A stretch of DNA of 48,818 bases. It comes from a virus. Numbering within the stretch: the first letter of the stretch is position 1; every line of letters starts with the position of its first letter. Under the pieces are notes generated by a model. It was not told where the DNA came from. It made no database searches and worked only from the letters and a program-made list of their open reading frames with translations. The position numbers were made by a program, and so were the translations under genes. The DNA is taken from the UHGV virus genome UHGV-1992300; one strand, 5' to 3'. Positions 3,469 through 27,025 of the stretch are shown piece after piece.

Positions 3469-3526
3469 AAAAAGGGCGGCAGAGCAGTCACGGAGTAAAA
3501 CTGATACCGCCAAACGTCACCAGAAA
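3469..3526 (-). ncRNA. dicF: DicF-like small RNA
   Basis: Minus-strand read is TTTCTGGTGACGTTTGGCGGTATCAGTTTTACTCCGTGACTGCTCTGCCGCCCTTTTT: GC hairpin plus U-tract terminator, ~170 nt upstream of the DicB-like ORF, matching the DicF sequence as I recall it. Confidence 0.6.
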
Positions 3527-5385: not shown

Positions 5386-5667
5386 ATGGAAGAATTAAGA
5401 ATATTTCTCAATTCTCTTTCGTCAGATGAACAGCGTATGTTTGCATGCGAGTGTGGTACCAGCATCGGTTATCTAAGAAAGGCATTGAGTAAAGGTCAAG
5501 TGTTAGGGGCATCGTTATGTGTCCTTATTGAGCGAGCCAGTAATGGTGAAGTTACACGTCAGCAACTAAGGCCTTTTGATTGGATGAATATTTGGCCCGA
5601 GCTGGAAGATACCAAAACGTTAACACAACCACTTTCTAGGAGCTTGATTCATGAAAATCAAGCATGA
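5386..5667 (+). CDS. Cro/YdaS-like HTH regulator
   Basis: 93 aa; 'GTSIGYLRKALSKGQ' HTH-like segment; position and size match Cro/YdaS-family proteins of Rac/Qin-type prophages. Confidence 0.7.
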   Translation: MEELRIFLNSLSSDEQRMFACECGTSIGYLRKALSKGQVLGASLCVLIERASNGEVTRQQLRPFDWMNIWPELEDTKTLTQPLSRSLIHENQA

Positions 5668-11561: not shown

Positions 11562-12082
11562 CCTGGCCTGAAGCATTAACAACGGTAGGAATTGCGATGG
11601 CGGTGGCGCTGGTGGTGTATTCGATTTGCCACTGGGGATAAAAACGGTTTGCGGGAAAAGGAGAGTTAAGTAGAATTGCAGCGGGTGCTTGAGGCTATCT
11701 GTCTCAGGCATGAACACCAAAAGGCAGATAGAGAAAAGCCCCAGTTAACATTACGCGTCCGGCAAGACGCTTAACATTAATCTGAGGCCATATCTATGCT
11801 CTACACACGTAGGTTAGCCTCTTACGTGCCGAAAGGCAAGGAGAAGCAGGNNNNNNNNNNNNNNNNNNNNNNNNNNNCTAATCGCCCTGATCGTCATCTG
11901 TTTAACCGTCATTGTGACGGCACTGGTAACGAGGAAAGACCTCTGCGAGGTACGAATCCGAACCGGCCAGACGGAGGTCGCTGTCTTCACAGCTTACGAA
12001 CCTGAGGAGTAAGAGACCCGGCGGGGGAGTAATCTCCCGCCACCTCTGATGTGCCAGGCATCCTCAACGCACCCGCACTTAA

Positions 12083-18507: not shown

Positions 18508-18583
18508 GGCCCTTTAGCTCAGTGGTGAGAGCGAGCGACTCATAATCGCCAGGTCGCTGGTTCAAATCCAGCAAGGGCCACCA
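18508..18583 (+). tRNA. tRNA, anticodon CAT (Ile2/Met type; ileZ-like)
   Basis: Cloverleaf read by eye: acceptor GGCCCTT/AAGGGCC, D-arm TAGCTCAGTGGTGAGAGC, anticodon loop CTCATAA, T-loop GGTTCAAATCC, 3' CCA. Confidence 0.85.
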
Positions 18584-18590
18584 TCACATA

Positions 18591-18667
18591 CCGCCATTAG
18601 CTCATCAGGAAAGAGCGCCAGCCTTCGAAGCTGGTTGCGCGGGGTTCAAGTCCCCGATGGCGGTCCA
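18591..18667 (+). tRNA. tRNA-Arg, anticodon TCG
   Basis: Acceptor CCGCCAT/ATGGCGG, anticodon stem-loop CCAGC-CTTCGAA-GCTGG, T-arm CGGGGTTCAAGTCCCCG, 3' CCA. Confidence 0.8.
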
Positions 18668-18680
18668 TTATCTGCATCAT

Positions 18681-18757
18681 GCGTTGTTAGCTCAGCCGGA
18701 CAGAGCAATTGCCTTCTAAGCAATCGGTCACTGGTTCGAATCCAGTACAACGCGCCA
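18681..18757 (+). tRNA. tRNA-Arg, anticodon TCT
   Basis: Acceptor GCGTTGT/ACAACGC, anticodon stem-loop ATTGC-CTTCTAA-GCAAT, T-arm ACTGGTTCGAATCCAGT, 3' CCA. Confidence 0.85.
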
Positions 18758-19048
18758 CACTTATTTTCCCTGGCTCGCTTTTGTGGGCCTTTTTTTTAAA
18801 TGTCTCACAATTTAGGCGGTTGACTGTTGTCTGGTTTGCGGGGAGTTTGTTAAAAGAAACTGGCATGGTGAATCCCCCTGTGCGGAGGGGCAATCAGCGA
18901 GTAGGTATATGGGATAATCGCGGATTCAGGTGCTGGTACTGAATTCACCGGGAGGCACCCGGCACCATGCAATGGCACATAGCGCCACTCTCCAGCCCCT
19001 CTCCGGAGGGGCTGTTTATATTGATTTTGTCAGATGTGAGTAAACTCC

Positions 19049-22284: not shown

Positions 22285-22500
22285 ATGTACCAGATGGAAA
22301 AAATCACAACAGGTGTGTCATACACCACGTCAGCGGTGGGAACGGGCTACTGGTTCCTGCAGTTGCTGGACAGGGTTTCCCCGTCTCAGTGGGCGGCAAT
22401 AGGCGTGCTGGGGAGTCTGCTGTTTGGGCTGCTGACGTACCTGACTAACCTGTATTTCAAAATCAAAGAGGACCGGCGTAAGGCGGCGCGGGGAGAGTAA
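22285..22500 (+). CDS. S: phage-21-type pinholin S (dual-start)
   Basis: '[10 protein letters not shown]...[51 protein letters not shown]' closely matches S21 as I recall it, including the M-x-x-M dual start. Confidence 0.85.
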
Positions 22501-22504
22501 AGTG

Positions 22505-23395
22505 ATGAATAAAAAATATGAACTGGTTGTTAAGGGGATAAATAATTACGGGGATAAGGTTACTGTTACTGTGAAGCCGGAAGGTGACGGGCAAGCGTCG
22601 CTGTTGTTGCCAGATGTGGCGATTAGTCTTGACCGTACTGAAGGTGCCACGCTGGAGTTTTACGAAGCTGAGGCGAAAAAGCAGGCGAAGCAGTTTTTCA
22701 TGGATGTTGCTGCCGGGTTATGTGAATGGAACGAACCGTTGCCGGAAAAGCGCCCCGTAATTTTAGAGGCGCAGGATGTGTTGATAACCTACAAAGGAAA
22801 GCTACCGGGAAGAATTACTTGTTCTCTGAAGATGCCGCCGTCAACACTGCGGTCAGAAAAAGATGATGTTGAATCACGTATTGAAAAACTGGAGAGCTAC
22901 GTCGTTGAGCTGAATAAGAAATGGTCGATATTGGTGCCTTCTGGCGATGAAAAGCAGTTTGCTGCGTTTGACGATTATTGTCGGAAAGTGATGAGCAGAA
23001 ATCTCGCAGAGTGTTTCAGTATTCATAATGATAATTTCAGTGAGCTGGAATGGGAGTGTAACCGGCCATCCTTTGTTGTATCCGGTGATGCTGGGAAAAT
23101 AACCATCTCAGAAAATGGGAAAGTAACACCTCCATCGCACCAGCACAGTGAGGAGCTCATTGAATTTGCCATTGATTACCTGAAGAACAATAAAAAGCAG
23201 GGGCTGATGAAGCGCGTTGGCCGTTGCATGGGATATCTTCAGGTAGCCGCTGAGATTGAAGCGCTGGCCAGTGGTGCTGATAAGGATGCAATTGTGCGGG
23301 AGGCTCTTCTTCGTGATTTTAATACTCCACCCTTTAAAAAAGTGCCGGCTTACTGGCTTCATCCGGGGCTGACTTATCTTAAAGTGCGTATTTAG
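22505..23395 (+). CDS. hypothetical protein inserted between holin and endolysin
   Basis: 297-aa ORF starting 5 nt after the holin stop and ending 36 nt before the endolysin start; AT-richer than the flanking lysis genes; no TM segment or signal peptide; no domain recognised. Confidence 0.6.
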   Translation: MNKKYELVVKGINNYGDKVTVTVKPEGDGQASLLLPDVAISLDRTEGATLEFYEAEAKKQAKQFFMDVAAGLCEWNEPLPEKRPVILEAQDVLITYKGKLPGRITCSLKMPPSTLRSEKDDVESRIEKLESYVVELNKKWSILVPSGDEKQFAAFDDYCRKVMSRNLAECFSIHNDNFSELEWECNRPSFVVSGDAGKITISENGKVTPPSHQHSEELIEFAIDYLKNNKKQGLMKRVGRCMGYLQVAAEIEALASGADKDAIVREALLRDFNTPPFKKVPAYWLHPGLTYLKVRI

Positions 23396-24319: not shown

Positions 24320-24450
24320 TGTCAGACAAACTCATAACGCTGGCGAAGATCCTCTGTGTAATTGTCGGCATTTCATTTTCACTAATGCTGGTTGCTCTTT
24401 TTCTTTCCATGGCCTGGATGATGTTGTCTTCGTCGGGGTTGCTGGGGTGA
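24320..24450 (+). CDS. hypothetical small membrane peptide
   Basis: 43 aa with GGGAGG RBS; single hydrophobic helix. Confidence 0.3.
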
Positions 24451-24920
24451 ACATAAACCGAATGCTTTCCGCGTTTATCGTTATTCTGCTGGTGGCCTGT
24501 GGTGCGCTGTGGATGGCAACAGACCATTACCGTGATAACGCGATTACCTACAAAGCGCAGCGCGATAACAAAGCCAGTGAACTGAAGCTGGCGAACGCAA
24601 CCATTACTGATATGCAGGTGCGCCAGCGCGATGTTGCTGCGCTCGATGCAAAATACTCGAGGGAATTAGCCGATGCGAGAGCTGAAAATGAAACTCTTCG
24701 CGCTGACGTTGCCGCTGGTCGTAAGCGCCTGCGGATCAACGCCACCTGTCCAGGCTCCGTGCGTGAAGCCCCCACCACCTCCGGCGTGGATAATGCAACC
24801 GGCCCCCAACTGGCAGACACCGTTACACGGGATTATTTCACCCTCAGAGAGCGGCTGATGACGATGCACAAGCAACTGGAAGGGGCACAGGACTATATCC
24901 GCACTCAGTGCCTGAAATAA
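24447..24920 (+). CDS. Rz: i-spanin Rz
   Basis: N-terminal TM helix then '[15 protein letters not shown]...' matching lambda Rz; start may be GTG 24447 or ATG 24462. Confidence 0.8.
24673..24858 (+). CDS. Rz1: o-spanin Rz1 (lipoprotein, embedded in Rz in the +1 frame)
   Basis: 61 aa; lipobox 'VVSAC'; proline-rich '[14 protein letters not shown]' as in lambda Rz1. Confidence 0.8.
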
Positions 24921-25230
24921 GTTTTGTTGATGCGCCGTATCGTCGCTATATTCCCTCATTAACAGAGACCGCAGCCCGACAGGGAGACTCCTCTGCGCGA
25001 GTGTGCGGGGATAATTAAAAACGATGCACACCGGGTTTTTACCGCGTTAATGATTCGCGGGTTTATCCCGGTGCGATGGTGGAAGAAACAGGAAGCTGTA
25101 TTACAGAAAGTGCTACTACTGTATCCCGATGCGATGTATGTAATGTGAGTCAGATAATGGCACAGGATGTGGTGATGTGGCAGTCTGGAACACAGGATAT
25201 ATTGTCAGAATAAGACCCGTAGGAATAAAA

Positions 25231-25557
25231 ATGAAAAGACGCCTTTTACTACTTTTTCTGTTATCTGTCCTGGCAGTGGGATGCTCACAGCAAAAAGCTG
25301 ATGAGCCCCGGCAATTAGTGACGGTGTATCCACGATATCCGGAATATGCTGCAGCAAATTATATCAAGGGGCTGGTTGAGGTTAAGTTCGATATTGGTGC
25401 TGATGGGACTGTGACACGGATCGTTTTTCTCCGCTCAGAGCCTCATAATTTGTTTCGTGATGAAGTGGTGAAGGCCATGGCGAAATGGCGATTTGAAAAG
25501 AATCGCCCCTGTCAGGGAGTGAAGAGACAATTTATCTTTACGCCGTCACGTCCCTGA
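25231..25557 (+). CDS. lipoprotein with TonB C-terminal-like domain
   Basis: Signal/lipobox 'LLLLFLLSVLAVGC'; 'YPEYAAANYIKGLVEVKFDIGADGTVTRIVFLRSEPHNLFRDEVVKAMAKWRFE' aligns by eye with the E. coli TonB C-terminal domain. Confidence 0.6.
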   Translation: MKRRLLLLFLLSVLAVGCSQQKADEPRQLVTVYPRYPEYAAANYIKGLVEVKFDIGADGTVTRIVFLRSEPHNLFRDEVVKAMAKWRFEKNRPCQGVKRQFIFTPSRP

Positions 25558-25649
25558 TGCTTCCAGGTAGAGAGGGGCTGGACGCAGGAGAAAAATGAAA
25601 GAGCCAGCGGTTATATTTTTGTCATGGCTGACGAGGAATGATGGAAGAA

Positions 25650-25672
25650 GGCGTTGTATGCCACACAACGCC
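25650..25672. terminator. bidirectional hairpin between convergent genes
   Basis: GGCGTTGT-(7 nt)-ACAACGCC with T-rich sequence on both sides. Confidence 0.5.
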
Positions 25673-25679
25673 TCACTGT

Positions 25680-25859
25680 TCATTTCTTCTTTTTCTCTGG
25701 TGGAACCCGATGAATAAGAGTTGCACTGGTTTCCGATGAGATGGCGATATACTCGGGCAAAGTATGCTGGCAGTTTTCCAACTGGTCAAAAATACCTGCT
25801 CTCGTCTGTTGCAATGCCTGCAGCATGCGGCGGCAATGCGCCTTGCTTTTACTAACCAT
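25680..25859 (-). CDS. hypothetical small protein
   Basis: 59 aa from internal ATG with GAGGAAGGAAAG RBS; the longer ORF-track version would overlap the neighbouring gene. Confidence 0.3.
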   Translation of the reverse strand: MVSKSKAHCRRMLQALQQTRAGIFDQLENCQHTLPEYIAISSETSATLIHRVPPEKKKK

Positions 25860-25920
25860 CTTTCCTTCCTCTATCAGTCGCTGCGTGAACTCATCATGTA
25901 ATACCAGGTAAATGCGGATG

Positions 25921-26172
25921 TTATCGGTTTTGGCTACGCAGCATAGTACAAAACGGACAGGTGCATCCCGGGACGGGGGAGGCGTCACATGTCCCTGGGA
26001 TGGTTGTTCCGGGTAATGCACTGTGTGGGGCATAAAAATGTCCGATAATTTTACTTTCTACCGCAGTTAGTTGATTCGTTGGTCCTGGTAGCACATTGGG
26101 CGAGGATTTAAATGCCAGGCAACTGAAGGATGATGTTGCAAGGGAGATAGCGAGAATATTTCTGATTTTCAT
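25921..26172 (-). CDS. hypothetical small secreted Cys-rich protein
   Basis: 84 aa from 'MKIRNILAISLATSSFSCLA' (signal-peptide-like); C-terminal 'CDASPVPGCTCPFC'. Confidence 0.35.
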   Translation of the reverse strand: MKIRNILAISLATSSFSCLAFKSSPNVLPGPTNQLTAVESKIIGHFYAPHSALPGTTIPGTCDASPVPGCTCPFCTMLRSQNR

Positions 26173-26320
26173 TTGATGATGCCTCTGTGTGAAATGACGG
26201 TAAACGACGCACTTGTGCCGGCACATAATAGCAAGCACCATAATAGATCAGATTCGATTCTTGCTGTAAGTGATAATCATTCTCGTTTTCGGGTCCTTTC
26301 CGTCGATCCAACAGGTTACG

Positions 26321-26332
26321 GGGCGGCGACCT
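26321..26332. other. cosN cohesive-end site (lambda-identical)
   Basis: GGGCGGCGACCT followed by CGCGGGTTTTCGCTATTTATGAAAATTTTCC, matching the left end of the lambda genome as I recall it; sequence diverges after ~45 nt. Confidence 0.75.
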
Positions 26333-26515
26333 CGCGGGTTTTCGCTATTTATGAAAATTTTCCGGGAACCATGTCCGGTTTCTCTTCAAGTTAACTATAT
26401 GAAAAATAAAAAAAGAGGTCTTCTGTGAACCGGACATGCACAAAAAATAGACATGTAAGCCGGACATGACCGGTTTTGTTGTGATTGTGAAGTGAGAGTT
26501 TTTGCGAGGTGAGGA

Positions 26516-27025
26516 GTGGCTACGCAGACTGAAGTTGCCAGGCATTTAAGTCTGACCGATCGCCAGCTTCGCAGATTGCAGAAATTGCCGGGTGCCCCGA
26601 TATCGAATAAGCGAGGGCAACTGGATCTGGATGCCTGGCGCGATTTTTACATATCGTATCTGAGAAGAAGTAAAAACGATGTGCCTGATGGTGATAGCGA
26701 AGACGACTATGAGGAGAAATTGCTTATTGCCAGATGGGAACTGACAGCAGAACAGGCTGTTACACAGCAGTTAAAAAATGAGGTGTCAAAAGGAAAACTT
26801 ATTGATACCGGGTTCTGTATTTTTGCTCTCAGCAAGCTGGCAATGGCGTTATCCAGTACGCTTGATTCCATCCCTTTATCCATGCAGCGACAGTTTCCTG
26901 ATTTAACACCGCGCCATCTTGACCATCTGAAAACCCTTATTGCGAAGGGGGCAAATCAGTGTGCGCGGGCGGGGGATAAATTACCGGATTTACTCGATGA
27001 ATATATCAGAGCAACAACTGAATAA
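26516..27025 (+). CDS. nu1: terminase small subunit (Nu1-like)
   Basis: C-terminal half 'FCIFALSKLAMALSSTLDSIPLSMQRQFPDL' matches lambda Nu1; N-terminal DNA-binding part differs; GTG start after GAGGTGAGGA. Confidence 0.85.
   Translation: MATQTEVARHLSLTDRQLRRLQKLPGAPISNKRGQLDLDAWRDFYISYLRRSKNDVPDGDSEDDYEEKLLIARWELTAEQAVTQQLKNEVSKGKLIDTGFCIFALSKLAMALSSTLDSIPLSMQRQFPDLTPRHLDHLKTLIAKGANQCARAGDKLPDLLDEYIRATTE

What the first reader, a model, noticed from the sequence alone, without database searches (positions are those of the whole stretch)
25231..25557. Prophage lipoprotein with a TonB C-terminal-like domain
The product has a lipoprotein signal (lipobox ending ...AVGC) followed by ~85 aa that align by eye with the TonB C-terminal domain (YP..A....G.V.V.F.I..DG.V......S.........EV..A...WRF). 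A free periplasmic TonB-CTD could compete for TonB boxes of outer-membrane transporters and block TonB-dependent phages or colicins, a superinfection-exclusion strategy analogous to Cor/Llp. This is hypothesis, not a known function.
Basis: partly seen in the sequence, partly recalled or inferred. Interest (0 to 1): 0.55.

Follow-up and report, generated by a model that had tools for sequence, protein, structure and literature searches.

The report
Prophage lipoprotein carrying a TonB C-terminal domain
A small gene of a lambda-like E. coli prophage, identical to one in classical phage 21, encodes a lipid-anchored copy of only the receptor-docking end of the TonB protein; databases already annotate it, its function has never been tested, and it may act as a decoy that blunts TonB-dependent phages and bacteriocins.

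Summary
Window 25231-25557 (+) encodes a 108-aa protein with a lipoprotein signal peptide (…LAVG-C18, Ser at +2) and a complete TonB C-terminal domain. Support: Pfam TonB_C E 7e-13; 38-40% identity to E. coli TonB 150-230 without gaps; AlphaFold model 0.9-1.0 Å rmsd from TonB in its BtuB and FhuA complexes.

It is not new as a gene. The identical protein is annotated in phage 21 ("TonB C-terminal domain protein") and in RefSeq (WP_000830178.1). Its DNA is in 1225 of 5426 complete E. coli genomes. In prophage Perceval of strain LF82 it is a moron transcribed in lysogens.

It is not a decayed tonB fragment. dN/dS is 0.12 and the lipobox is conserved. It belongs to a clade of small lipoproteins that are chromosomal in Klebsiella, Raoultella, Serratia and Pantoea, separate from true TonB.

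I found no functional study. The decoy/exclusion idea is plausible, because periplasmic TonB fragments inhibit the Ton system. It remains inferred and needs correcting: the protein is lipid-tethered, probably to the outer membrane, not free. Phage 21 uses LamB, so any exclusion would target other phages. Several TonB-invariant surface residues are replaced.

The parts
25231..25557 (+). CDS of the 108-aa TonB-CTD lipoprotein (stop codon included)
   Evidence: ORF list and sequence. Same coordinates as RefSeq WP_000830178.1 'TonB family protein' in a closely related genome. 100% identical to phage 21 CPT_21_73.
25221..25224 (+). Shine-Dalgarno-like AGGA, 6 nt before the ATG
   Evidence: Read from the sequence. 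Phage 21 annotates a ribosome-binding site at the equivalent position.
25231..25284 (+). Lipoprotein signal peptide (aa 1-17) plus the lipid-modified Cys18; lipobox L-A-V-G-C followed by Ser
   Evidence: Sequence. Lipobox and non-Asp +2 residue conserved across the family.
25306..25545 (+). TonB C-terminal domain (aa 26-105: short N-strand, helix 1, beta1, beta2, helix 2, beta3)
   Evidence: Pfam and NCBIfam, PDB sequence alignment, AlphaFold model and Foldseek.
25519..25542 (+). Strand beta3 (aa 97-104, VKRQFIFT), which aligns with TonB I224-K231, the strand that pairs with TonB boxes
   Evidence: Ungapped alignment with an offset of +127. Strand E94-103 in the model. Role of beta3 from PMC11658791.
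25076..25213 (+). 45-aa ORF just upstream that travels with the gene (annotated as hypothetical in phage 21); coding status doubtful
   Evidence: No PHROG or PADLOC hit. Only its first ~12 codons are conserved in the JLK-2012 variant.
24921..26515 (.). Low-GC accessory ('moron') region between the spanin genes and the small terminase gene, which holds the lipoprotein gene
   Evidence: GC is 46.6% here, against 54.9% for Rz and 51.5% for the terminase genes. The order lysis, [bor], orf45, TonB-CTD, terminase recurs in 80 viral contigs and in three phage types.
24447..24920 (+). Context: i-spanin Rz, with the embedded o-spanin Rz1 at 24673-24858
   Evidence: phrog_13 E 2e-73 and phrog_3198 E 1e-29.
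26516..27025 (+). Context: terminase small subunit (Nu1-like), the first gene of the packaging module
   Evidence: phrog_1790 and phrog_57; RefSeq annotation.

Best explanation
The gene is a mobile accessory gene (moron) of lambdoid prophages. It is expressed in lysogens and also lies in the late operon. It encodes a small lipoprotein that consists only of a complete TonB C-terminal domain, joined to its lipidated Cys by about 8 residues and predicted to sit in the inner leaflet of the outer membrane. Shown: the gene, the signal peptide, the fold, purifying selection, the phage context, transcription in a lysogen, and membership of a clade of small enterobacterial lipoproteins distinct from TonB. 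Inferred mechanism: tethered next to TonB-dependent transporters, the domain uses its free beta3 edge to capture TonB-box strands by beta-augmentation. These strands could belong to transporters such as FhuA, BtuB, FepA and CirA, or to incoming group-B colicins. The domain has no membrane helix or link to ExbB/ExbD, so it cannot deliver energy. It would therefore act as a decoy competing with real TonB. The expected result is lower sensitivity of the lysogen to TonB-dependent phages (T1, phi80 type), group-B colicins, microcins and siderophore-antibiotics, at some cost in iron and B12 uptake.
For: Identity. The TonB residues Y163, P164, F180, G186, F202, W213, Y215 (as F) and F230 are all kept. 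The lipobox with S/T/A at +2 is conserved throughout the family. Selection: dN/dS is 0.12 against the 72% variant. The main allele is 100% identical in more than 70 viral contigs, and its DNA is in 1225 of 5426 E. coli genomes. The position between spanins and terminase is fixed in three phage types. The identical gene in prophage Perceval is transcribed 8-fold above the prophage background in lysogens (PMC9928086). Periplasmic TonB fragments abolish ferrichrome transport and cause iron-limited growth. TonB-box binding is a parallel beta-augmentation on beta3 that depends little on side chains, and TonB boxes occur in all TonB-dependent transporters and TonB-dependent colicins.
Against: I found no experiment on this protein or any relative. 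R166, L170, N190, R204 and K207 are invariant in a sample of 9 TonB-type domains (E. coli TonB plus its closest relatives from the search), but the lipoprotein family has Y, N, variable, D and I/V at those positions. Beta3 is the least conserved segment of the family, with mean pairwise identity 0.25. Chromosomal homologues are stand-alone genes in non-phage contexts, and a constitutive Ton inhibitor seems an odd thing for a host to keep. Inhibition by soluble TonB fragments may act through ExbD rather than through the transporters, and a short outer-membrane tether could not reach ExbD. I could not check whether an 8-residue tether at the domain's N-terminus allows the docking geometry. There was no PADLOC defence hit, and no clear own promoter or Fur box.
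Confidence: 0.4

Rival explanations
1. It is a lysogenic-conversion outer-membrane lipoprotein whose TonB-like fold binds a partner other than TonB boxes, such as another unstructured periplasmic strand, peptidoglycan, or an outer-membrane protein. It would then serve envelope robustness or host interaction, as the neighbouring moron Bor does.
For: The family is a distinct clade with its own conserved motifs (YPxYA, SEPxHLFD) and substitutions at TonB-invariant surface positions. Chromosomal members are orphan genes away from Ton or transporter genes. The gene sits beside or in place of bor in the same moron slot. The TolA/TonB fold binds varied peptide partners, as the TolA-III complexes among the weaker fold matches show.
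Against: The closest sequences and structures are all bona fide TonB domains at about 1 Å rmsd. The residues known to matter for TonB function are retained. I could identify no alternative ligand.
Confidence: 0.3
2. It inhibits the Ton system by titrating ExbD or TonB itself rather than the transporters.
For: Overexpressed periplasmic TonB(33-239) blocks the PMF-dependent ExbD-TonB cross-link.
Against: The phage protein lacks everything N-terminal to TonB residue ~150. It is predicted to be held at the outer membrane by about 8 residues, far from ExbD at the inner membrane (the geometry is inference).
Confidence: 0.07
3. It is a late lytic-cycle function. It could be a lysis accessory or spanin-like protein, as the PHROG label suggests, or an Llp-like factor that inactivates receptors on lysing cells so that progeny are not lost on debris.
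For: It lies directly after Rz/Rz1 in the late operon with no predicted intervening terminator. PHROG 1267 is labelled 'Rz-like spanin'.
Against: The prophage has its own complete Rz/Rz1 pair. The protein lacks the C-terminal membrane helix of a unimolecular spanin, and its fold is TonB_C. Phage 21 adsorbs to LamB, which is not TonB-dependent. The gene is transcribed in lysogens.
Confidence: 0.08
4. It is a non-functional remnant of a tonB gene picked up by the phage.
For: Older annotations call it 'partial tonB-like membrane protein' or 'TonB fragment'.
Against: dN/dS is 0.12. It has a purpose-built lipoprotein signal conserved at 72% and 41% identity. The fold is complete. It is expressed in lysogens. 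It clusters with intact chromosomal lipoproteins, not with TonB.
Confidence: 0.03

Closest known systems
E. coli TonB (P02929), C-terminal domain residues ~150-239 (PDB 1u07, 1xx3, 2gsk, 2grx)
   Same: Same fold (rmsd 0.9-1.4 Å, TM 0.9) with 38-40% identity and no gaps. The YP motif, G186, W213 and the functionally studied aromatic residues are retained. Strand beta3, which binds TonB boxes, is present.
   Different: It has no N-terminal transmembrane helix and no proline-rich spacer, so it has no coupling to ExbB/ExbD. Instead it has a cleavable lipoprotein signal. It ends 4 residues after beta3. TonB-invariant R166, L170, N190, R204 and K207 are replaced.
Uncharacterised small TonB_C lipoproteins of Enterobacterales (Klebsiella, Raoultella, Serratia, Erwinia, Pantoea, Rahnella, Salmonella; e.g. 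P0037, P0040, P0176, P0193)
   Same: This is its true family. Members are 104-133 aa, have the same lipobox-plus-domain architecture, share 31-49% identity and form one clade in a neighbour-joining tree.
   Different: Those genes are stand-alone chromosomal genes: beside lacZ/lacI in Klebsiella and Raoultella, and between ycgN and dsbB in Serratia. This one is phage-borne. I found none that has been studied.
Engineered periplasmic TonB fragments (signal peptide fused to TonB 33-239, 103-239 or 122-239)
   Same: Each is an exported TonB domain with no energy coupling. They inhibit Ton-dependent transport in a dominant-negative way. This is the functional precedent for the decoy idea.
   Different: They are soluble, overexpressed, longer, and possibly act on ExbD. 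The phage protein is natural, lipid-anchored and consists of the domain only.
Phage T5 Llp and phi80/N15 Cor (superinfection-exclusion lipoproteins)
   Same: They are small phage-encoded outer-membrane lipoproteins that act from the periplasmic side on a TonB-dependent transporter, FhuA, to block phage infection.
   Different: They target the phage's own receptor and work allosterically. No Llp or Cor family appeared in the family searches. Phage 21 uses LamB, so any exclusion here would be directed at other phages and bacteriocins.
Lambda Bor (Iss-like lipoprotein moron)
   Same: It occupies the same genomic slot between the lysis genes and cos/terminase, is a lipoprotein and is expressed in lysogens. 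In phage 21 and in many viral contigs both genes sit side by side.
   Different: Its sequence and strand are unrelated. Its reported role is serum resistance.

Membership tests
TonB energy-transducer proteins | N-terminal uncleaved transmembrane anchor that couples to ExbB/ExbD | tested here: not met
   The N-terminus is a cleavable lipoprotein signal with a lipobox. NCBIfam TonB equivalog models match only their C-terminal ~80 positions and score far below their cut-offs: 69 bits against 315.
TonB energy-transducer proteins | Proline-rich periplasm-spanning spacer | tested here: not met
   Only about 8 residues (SQQKADEP) lie between Cys18 and the domain.
TonB energy-transducer proteins | C-terminal TonB_C domain | tested here: met
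   PF03544 scores 49.2 bits against a cut-off of 24.6. Foldseek matches TonB CTD structures at rmsd ~1 Å.
Pfam TonB_C / TolA-TonB C-terminal fold | Score above the gathering threshold, and a fold of two helices packed on a three-stranded sheet | tested here: met
Pfam TonB_C / TolA-TonB C-terminal fold | Binding of a TonB-box strand by beta-augmentation on beta3 | not testable with these tools
   Beta3 is present, but no complex modelling or binding assay was possible.
Bacterial lipoproteins (signal peptidase II substrates), outer-membrane sorted | Basic n-region, hydrophobic core, lipobox [LVI..][ASTV..][GAS]-C within the first ~35 residues | tested here: met
   MKRR-LLLLFLLSVL-AVG-C18. The feature is conserved in all full-length family members.
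Bacterial lipoproteins (signal peptidase II substrates), outer-membrane sorted | No Asp at +2 (the Lol avoidance rule), hence sorting to the outer membrane | tested here: met
   Position +2 is Ser here and S/T/A across the family, never Asp. Actual acylation and localisation cannot be tested here.
Phage morons (lysogenic-conversion genes) | Non-essential insert between conserved modules with atypical base composition | tested here: met
   The gene is present or absent at the same slot in related prophages. GC is 46.8% against 51.5% for the window.
Phage morons (lysogenic-conversion genes) | Transcription from the repressed prophage | tested here: met
   From the literature only. The 100% identical gene LF82_160 is transcribed 8-fold above the prophage background (PMC9928086).
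Phage morons (lysogenic-conversion genes) | Own promoter and terminator | tested here: inconclusive
   No sigma-70 consensus site passed the scan on the + strand, and only 8/12 matches were found by hand. There is no terminator immediately after the gene.
Spanins (the label of PHROG 1267) | An o-spanin paired with or embedded in an i-spanin, or a u-spanin with a C-terminal membrane helix | tested here: not met
   The prophage has separate Rz and Rz1. This protein has a globular TonB_C fold and no C-terminal helix.
Cor/Llp superinfection-exclusion lipoproteins | Homology to Cor or Llp, and blockage of the phage's own receptor FhuA | tested here: not met
   The only families matched are TonB_C families. 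Phage 21, which carries the identical gene, adsorbs to LamB. Functional exclusion was not tested.
Catalogued anti-phage defence systems (PADLOC) | Match to a defence-system protein model | tested here: not met
   No hit at E ≤ 1.

The most novel reading that the evidence does not exclude
A widespread prophage gene, whose DNA is in at least 23% of complete E. coli genomes, encodes an outer-membrane-tethered TonB 'decoy'. It would occupy the TonB boxes of transporters and of incoming colicins. One small protein would then give lysogens broad protection against TonB-dependent phages, group-B colicins, microcins and siderophore-antibiotic conjugates. That would be a new superinfection-exclusion principle: mimicry of the host energy transducer instead of modification of a receptor. 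The chromosomal relatives in Klebsiella, Serratia and Pantoea would be host regulators of the same kind.
Probability: 0.3. Interest if true: 0.7.

Novelty: new variant of a known kind. Interest (0 to 1): 0.42.

Why it matters
If the decoy mechanism holds, a very common prophage gene would alter three things in E. coli lysogens: susceptibility to TonB-dependent phages (relevant to phage therapy), susceptibility to colicins and microcins (gut competition), and uptake of siderophore-coupled antibiotics and of iron. It would also give the first function for a whole family of small TonB_C lipoproteins in Enterobacterales. The test is easy, because phage 21 and its lysogens are standard laboratory material. 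If the mechanism does not hold, this is one more lysogen-expressed lipoprotein moron of unknown role.

Tried and rejected
- **Literature.** Nine full-text searches found no functional study of this protein or of any TonB_C lipoprotein. One search was swamped by unrelated 'lipoprotein' papers.
- **Iron regulation.** The best Fur-box match upstream has 8 of 19 mismatches, so I rejected it.
- **Own promoter.** The consensus scan found none on the + strand, and a relaxed scan gave only 8/12 matches. This is inconclusive.
- **Upstream conserved element.** It matched no Rfam family, even at E ≤ 1. It is not specific to this gene, so it is not a dedicated regulator.
- **Defence catalogue.** PADLOC gave no hit.
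- **Viral structure library.** BFVD gave no significant match, so the fold is rare among catalogued viral proteins.
- **Self-receptor blocking.** The C-terminus of the window's J tail-tip protein resembles those of Stx-phage and ECOR-prophage J proteins. No phi80, T1 or N15 record was among the 40 best matches listed.
- **Spanin reading.** Rejected.
- **tonB pseudogene reading.** Rejected.
- **Failed call.** A first attempt to scan genomes with a 13-sequence alignment failed because no stretch was conserved enough. I repeated it with 6 sequences.
- **Not possible here.** I could not obtain model coordinates to map conservation onto the surface.

Full report
**1. The observation**

- Window 25231-25557 (+) is an ORF of 108 codons with AGGA 6 nt upstream.
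- The product starts MKRRLLLLFLLSVLAVG-C18-SQQ. This is a basic n-region, a Leu-rich core, a lipobox and the Cys that would be lipidated.
- Residues 33-99 match Pfam TonB_C (PF03544) at 49.2 bits against a cut-off of 24.6, E 7e-13. TIGR01352 (tonB_Cterm) gives E 2e-12.
- The full-length TonB equivalog models match only with their last ~80 positions and fall far below their cut-offs.
- Against PDB sequences the best hits are E. coli TonB C-terminal domains (1u07, 1xx3, 2gsk, 2grx; E about 1e-14). Query 23-103 aligns to TonB 150-230 without gaps.
- An AlphaFold model built on a 30-sequence family alignment has pLDDT above 90 across the domain.
- The model superposes on TonB from the BtuB complex (2gsk_B, rmsd 1.0 Å, TM 0.92) and from the FhuA complex (2grx_C, 0.9 Å).

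**2. What is already on record**

- The protein is 100% identical to CPT_21_73 of classical lambdoid phage 21, annotated 'TonB C-terminal domain protein'. It is also identical to genes of phages ev017, Perceval and several ECOR prophages.
- RefSeq names it WP_000830178.1, 'TonB family protein'.
- The 601-bp region around it occurs in 1225 of 5426 complete E. coli genomes, nearly always at ≥99% identity.
- Of the 218 IMG/VR viral stretches confirmed as relatives, the 80 best were fetched; more than 70 of these encode the 100% identical protein.
- A 72%-identical allele occurs in Stx1a phages and phage JLK-2012. A 41% relative occurs in a Klebsiella phage.
- In strain LF82 the identical gene of prophage Perceval ('TonB fragment', LF82_160) was listed among morons. 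It was transcribed 8-fold above the prophage background in LB-grown lysogens (PMC9928086).
- The phage 21 genome announcement does not discuss the gene (PMC9119081).
- Nine full-text searches found no functional work on it or on any TonB_C lipoprotein.

**3. Genomic anatomy**

- The gene lies in a low-GC stretch (46.6%) between the spanin genes and the small terminase gene. Rz is at 24447-24920 (phrog_13) and Rz1 at 24673-24858 (phrog_3198). The terminase small subunit is at 26516-27025.
- In all three phage types, and in 80 viral contigs, the order is the same: endolysin, Rz/Rz1, bor (present or absent), a 45-codon ORF, the TonB-CTD gene, then terminase. The gene always has the orientation of the late operon.
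- No + strand terminator was predicted between Rz and the gene. No convincing sigma-70 promoter or Fur box lies upstream.
- The gene should therefore be read through late in infection. How it is transcribed in lysogens is unresolved.

**4. Not a decayed tonB fragment**

- Between the two E. coli phage alleles dN/dS is 0.12, with synonymous sites near saturation.
- The lipobox with S, T or A at +2 is kept in the 72% and 41% relatives and in every full-length family member.
- An exhaustive HMMER search of 1.8 billion representatives found many proteins of 100-135 aa that align from residue 1 and have the same signal-plus-domain architecture.
- Genome and contig look-ups place these proteins in Klebsiella, Raoultella, Serratia, Erwinia, Pantoea, Rahnella and Salmonella. 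They are stand-alone chromosomal genes in non-phage contexts, for example beside lacZ/lacI or between ycgN and dsbB.
- In a neighbour-joining tree of the domains, the phage proteins group with the Klebsiella/Raoultella lipoproteins inside this small-lipoprotein clade. That clade is separate from the enterobacterial TonB domains.
- The phage gene was most likely captured from such a host lipoprotein gene.

**5. Mechanism**

*Fold and membrane location (shown or rule-based)*
- The protein has the complete TonB docking domain, including beta3 (aa 97-104, equivalent to TonB 224-231), and ends 4 residues later.
- Y163, P164, F180, G186, F202, W213, Y215 (as Phe) and F230 of TonB are all retained.
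- It has no transmembrane anchor and no proline-rich rod, so it cannot transmit energy from ExbB/ExbD.
- Under the +2 sorting rule (established knowledge) it should be an outer-membrane lipoprotein, held by about 8 residues.

*From the literature*
- TonB boxes of transporters and of TonB-dependent colicins bind by parallel beta-augmentation on beta3. Secondary structure matters more than side chains (PMC11658791).
- Exported TonB fragments 33-239, 103-239 and 122-239 inhibit the Ton system (bioRxiv 10.1101/2020.01.05.895219).

*Inference*
- A domain tethered under the outer membrane would capture TonB boxes and compete with TonB.
- This would reduce TonB-dependent entry of phages and bacteriocins, at some cost to iron and B12 uptake.

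*Caveats*
- The same preprint argues that soluble fragments may act by blocking the ExbD-TonB contact. An outer-membrane tether could hardly reach that contact.
- R166, L170, N190, R204 and K207 are invariant in my sample of 9 TonB-type domains. In the lipoprotein family they are replaced by Y, N, variable residues, D and I/V. Beta3 is the family's least conserved segment.
- Host chromosomes keep orthologues, which is odd for a pure inhibitor.
- Phage 21 adsorbs to LamB, so this is not a Cor/Llp-style block of the phage's own receptor. The window's own J C-terminus gave no phi80, T1 or N15 record among the 40 best matches listed.

I put the decoy mechanism at about 0.4. The main rival, at about 0.3, is a different ligand or an envelope or virulence role.

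**6. Comparison with known systems**

- It is a member of the TonB_C domain family. It fails two of the three structural features that define TonB proteins.
- It resembles Llp and Cor only in being a small phage lipoprotein that might act on TonB-dependent transporters.
- It shares its genomic slot and lysogenic expression with Bor.
- The PHROG 1267 label 'Rz-like spanin' appears to be a mislabel. The prophage has its own Rz/Rz1, and this protein has a globular TonB fold.
- PADLOC has no model for it, and the BFVD viral structure library has no significant match.

**7. Verdict**

- The architecture, a lipid-anchored stand-alone TonB C-terminal domain, has no characterised member. I therefore rate it a new variant of a known kind, not a new kind.
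- Interest is moderate, at 0.42.

Noticed in passing
window 24945-25100: A ~150-nt non-coding element just upstream of the moron is better conserved between phage types than the TonB-CTD gene itself. It occurs at 5623 places in 2741 of 5426 E. coli genomes. In both loci without the gene that I opened, it lies between the lysis genes and the terminase. It contains a strong hairpin (CACCGGG…CCCGGTG) that looks like a terminator on the minus strand. It matches no Rfam family.
   Followed up: partly
window 25231-25557 (PHROG 1267): The PHROG family holding this protein is labelled 'Rz-like spanin'. That looks like a mislabel, and it could propagate into phage annotations.
   Followed up: yes
window 25680-25859 (- strand): A small minus-strand ORF (RefSeq WP_000253883.1, phrog_4843, function unknown) accompanies the main TonB-CTD allele in most of the 80 viral contigs examined.
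   Followed up: partly
window 25076-25213: A 45-codon ORF directly upstream is annotated as hypothetical in phage 21. Only its first ~12 codons and its stop region are conserved in the JLK-2012 variant. It may be a leader or may not be coding at all.
   Followed up: partly
window 22502-23395: A 297-aa ORF of unknown function (phrog_1085) lies just upstream of the endolysin gene; by analogy with the related genome LC-1302-2020, where the holin gene ends at 22500, it would sit between holin and endolysin (holin not checked in the window itself). In that genome the same place holds a truncated YdfR-family pseudogene.
   Followed up: no
window 3474-3525 (-), 11683-11850, 18508-18754, 18834-19023: Rfam gathering-level hits elsewhere in the prophage are DicF sRNA, the sok antitoxin RNA, three tRNAs downstream of the antiterminator region, and sRNA STnc100.
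   Followed up: no
L006-L010 (Klebsiella/Raoultella), L013 (Serratia grimesii), L020/L021 (Pantoea): Chromosomal homologues of the phage lipoprotein are orphan genes at fixed host positions: beside lacI/lacZ in Klebsiella and Raoultella, and between ycgN and dsbB in Serratia. In two Klebsiella loci a gene for a ~707-aa protein with a TonB-box-like N-terminal motif, which may be a TonB-dependent receptor (not run against any family model), lies ~5 kb away.
   Followed up: partly
L005 (Modestobacter excelsi assembly, 418-bp contig): A 418-bp contig in an actinobacterial assembly encodes the first 67 residues of the protein at 100% identity. This is almost certainly E. coli or phage contamination of that assembly.
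   Followed up: no
whole window compared with NZ_CP091756.1 1973220-2022037 (L018): The window is position-for-position collinear with this E. coli chromosome around the gene. A positional comparison gave 15194 mismatches in total, and the tRNA positions differ. The window is therefore a mosaic relative and not the same prophage.
   Followed up: no
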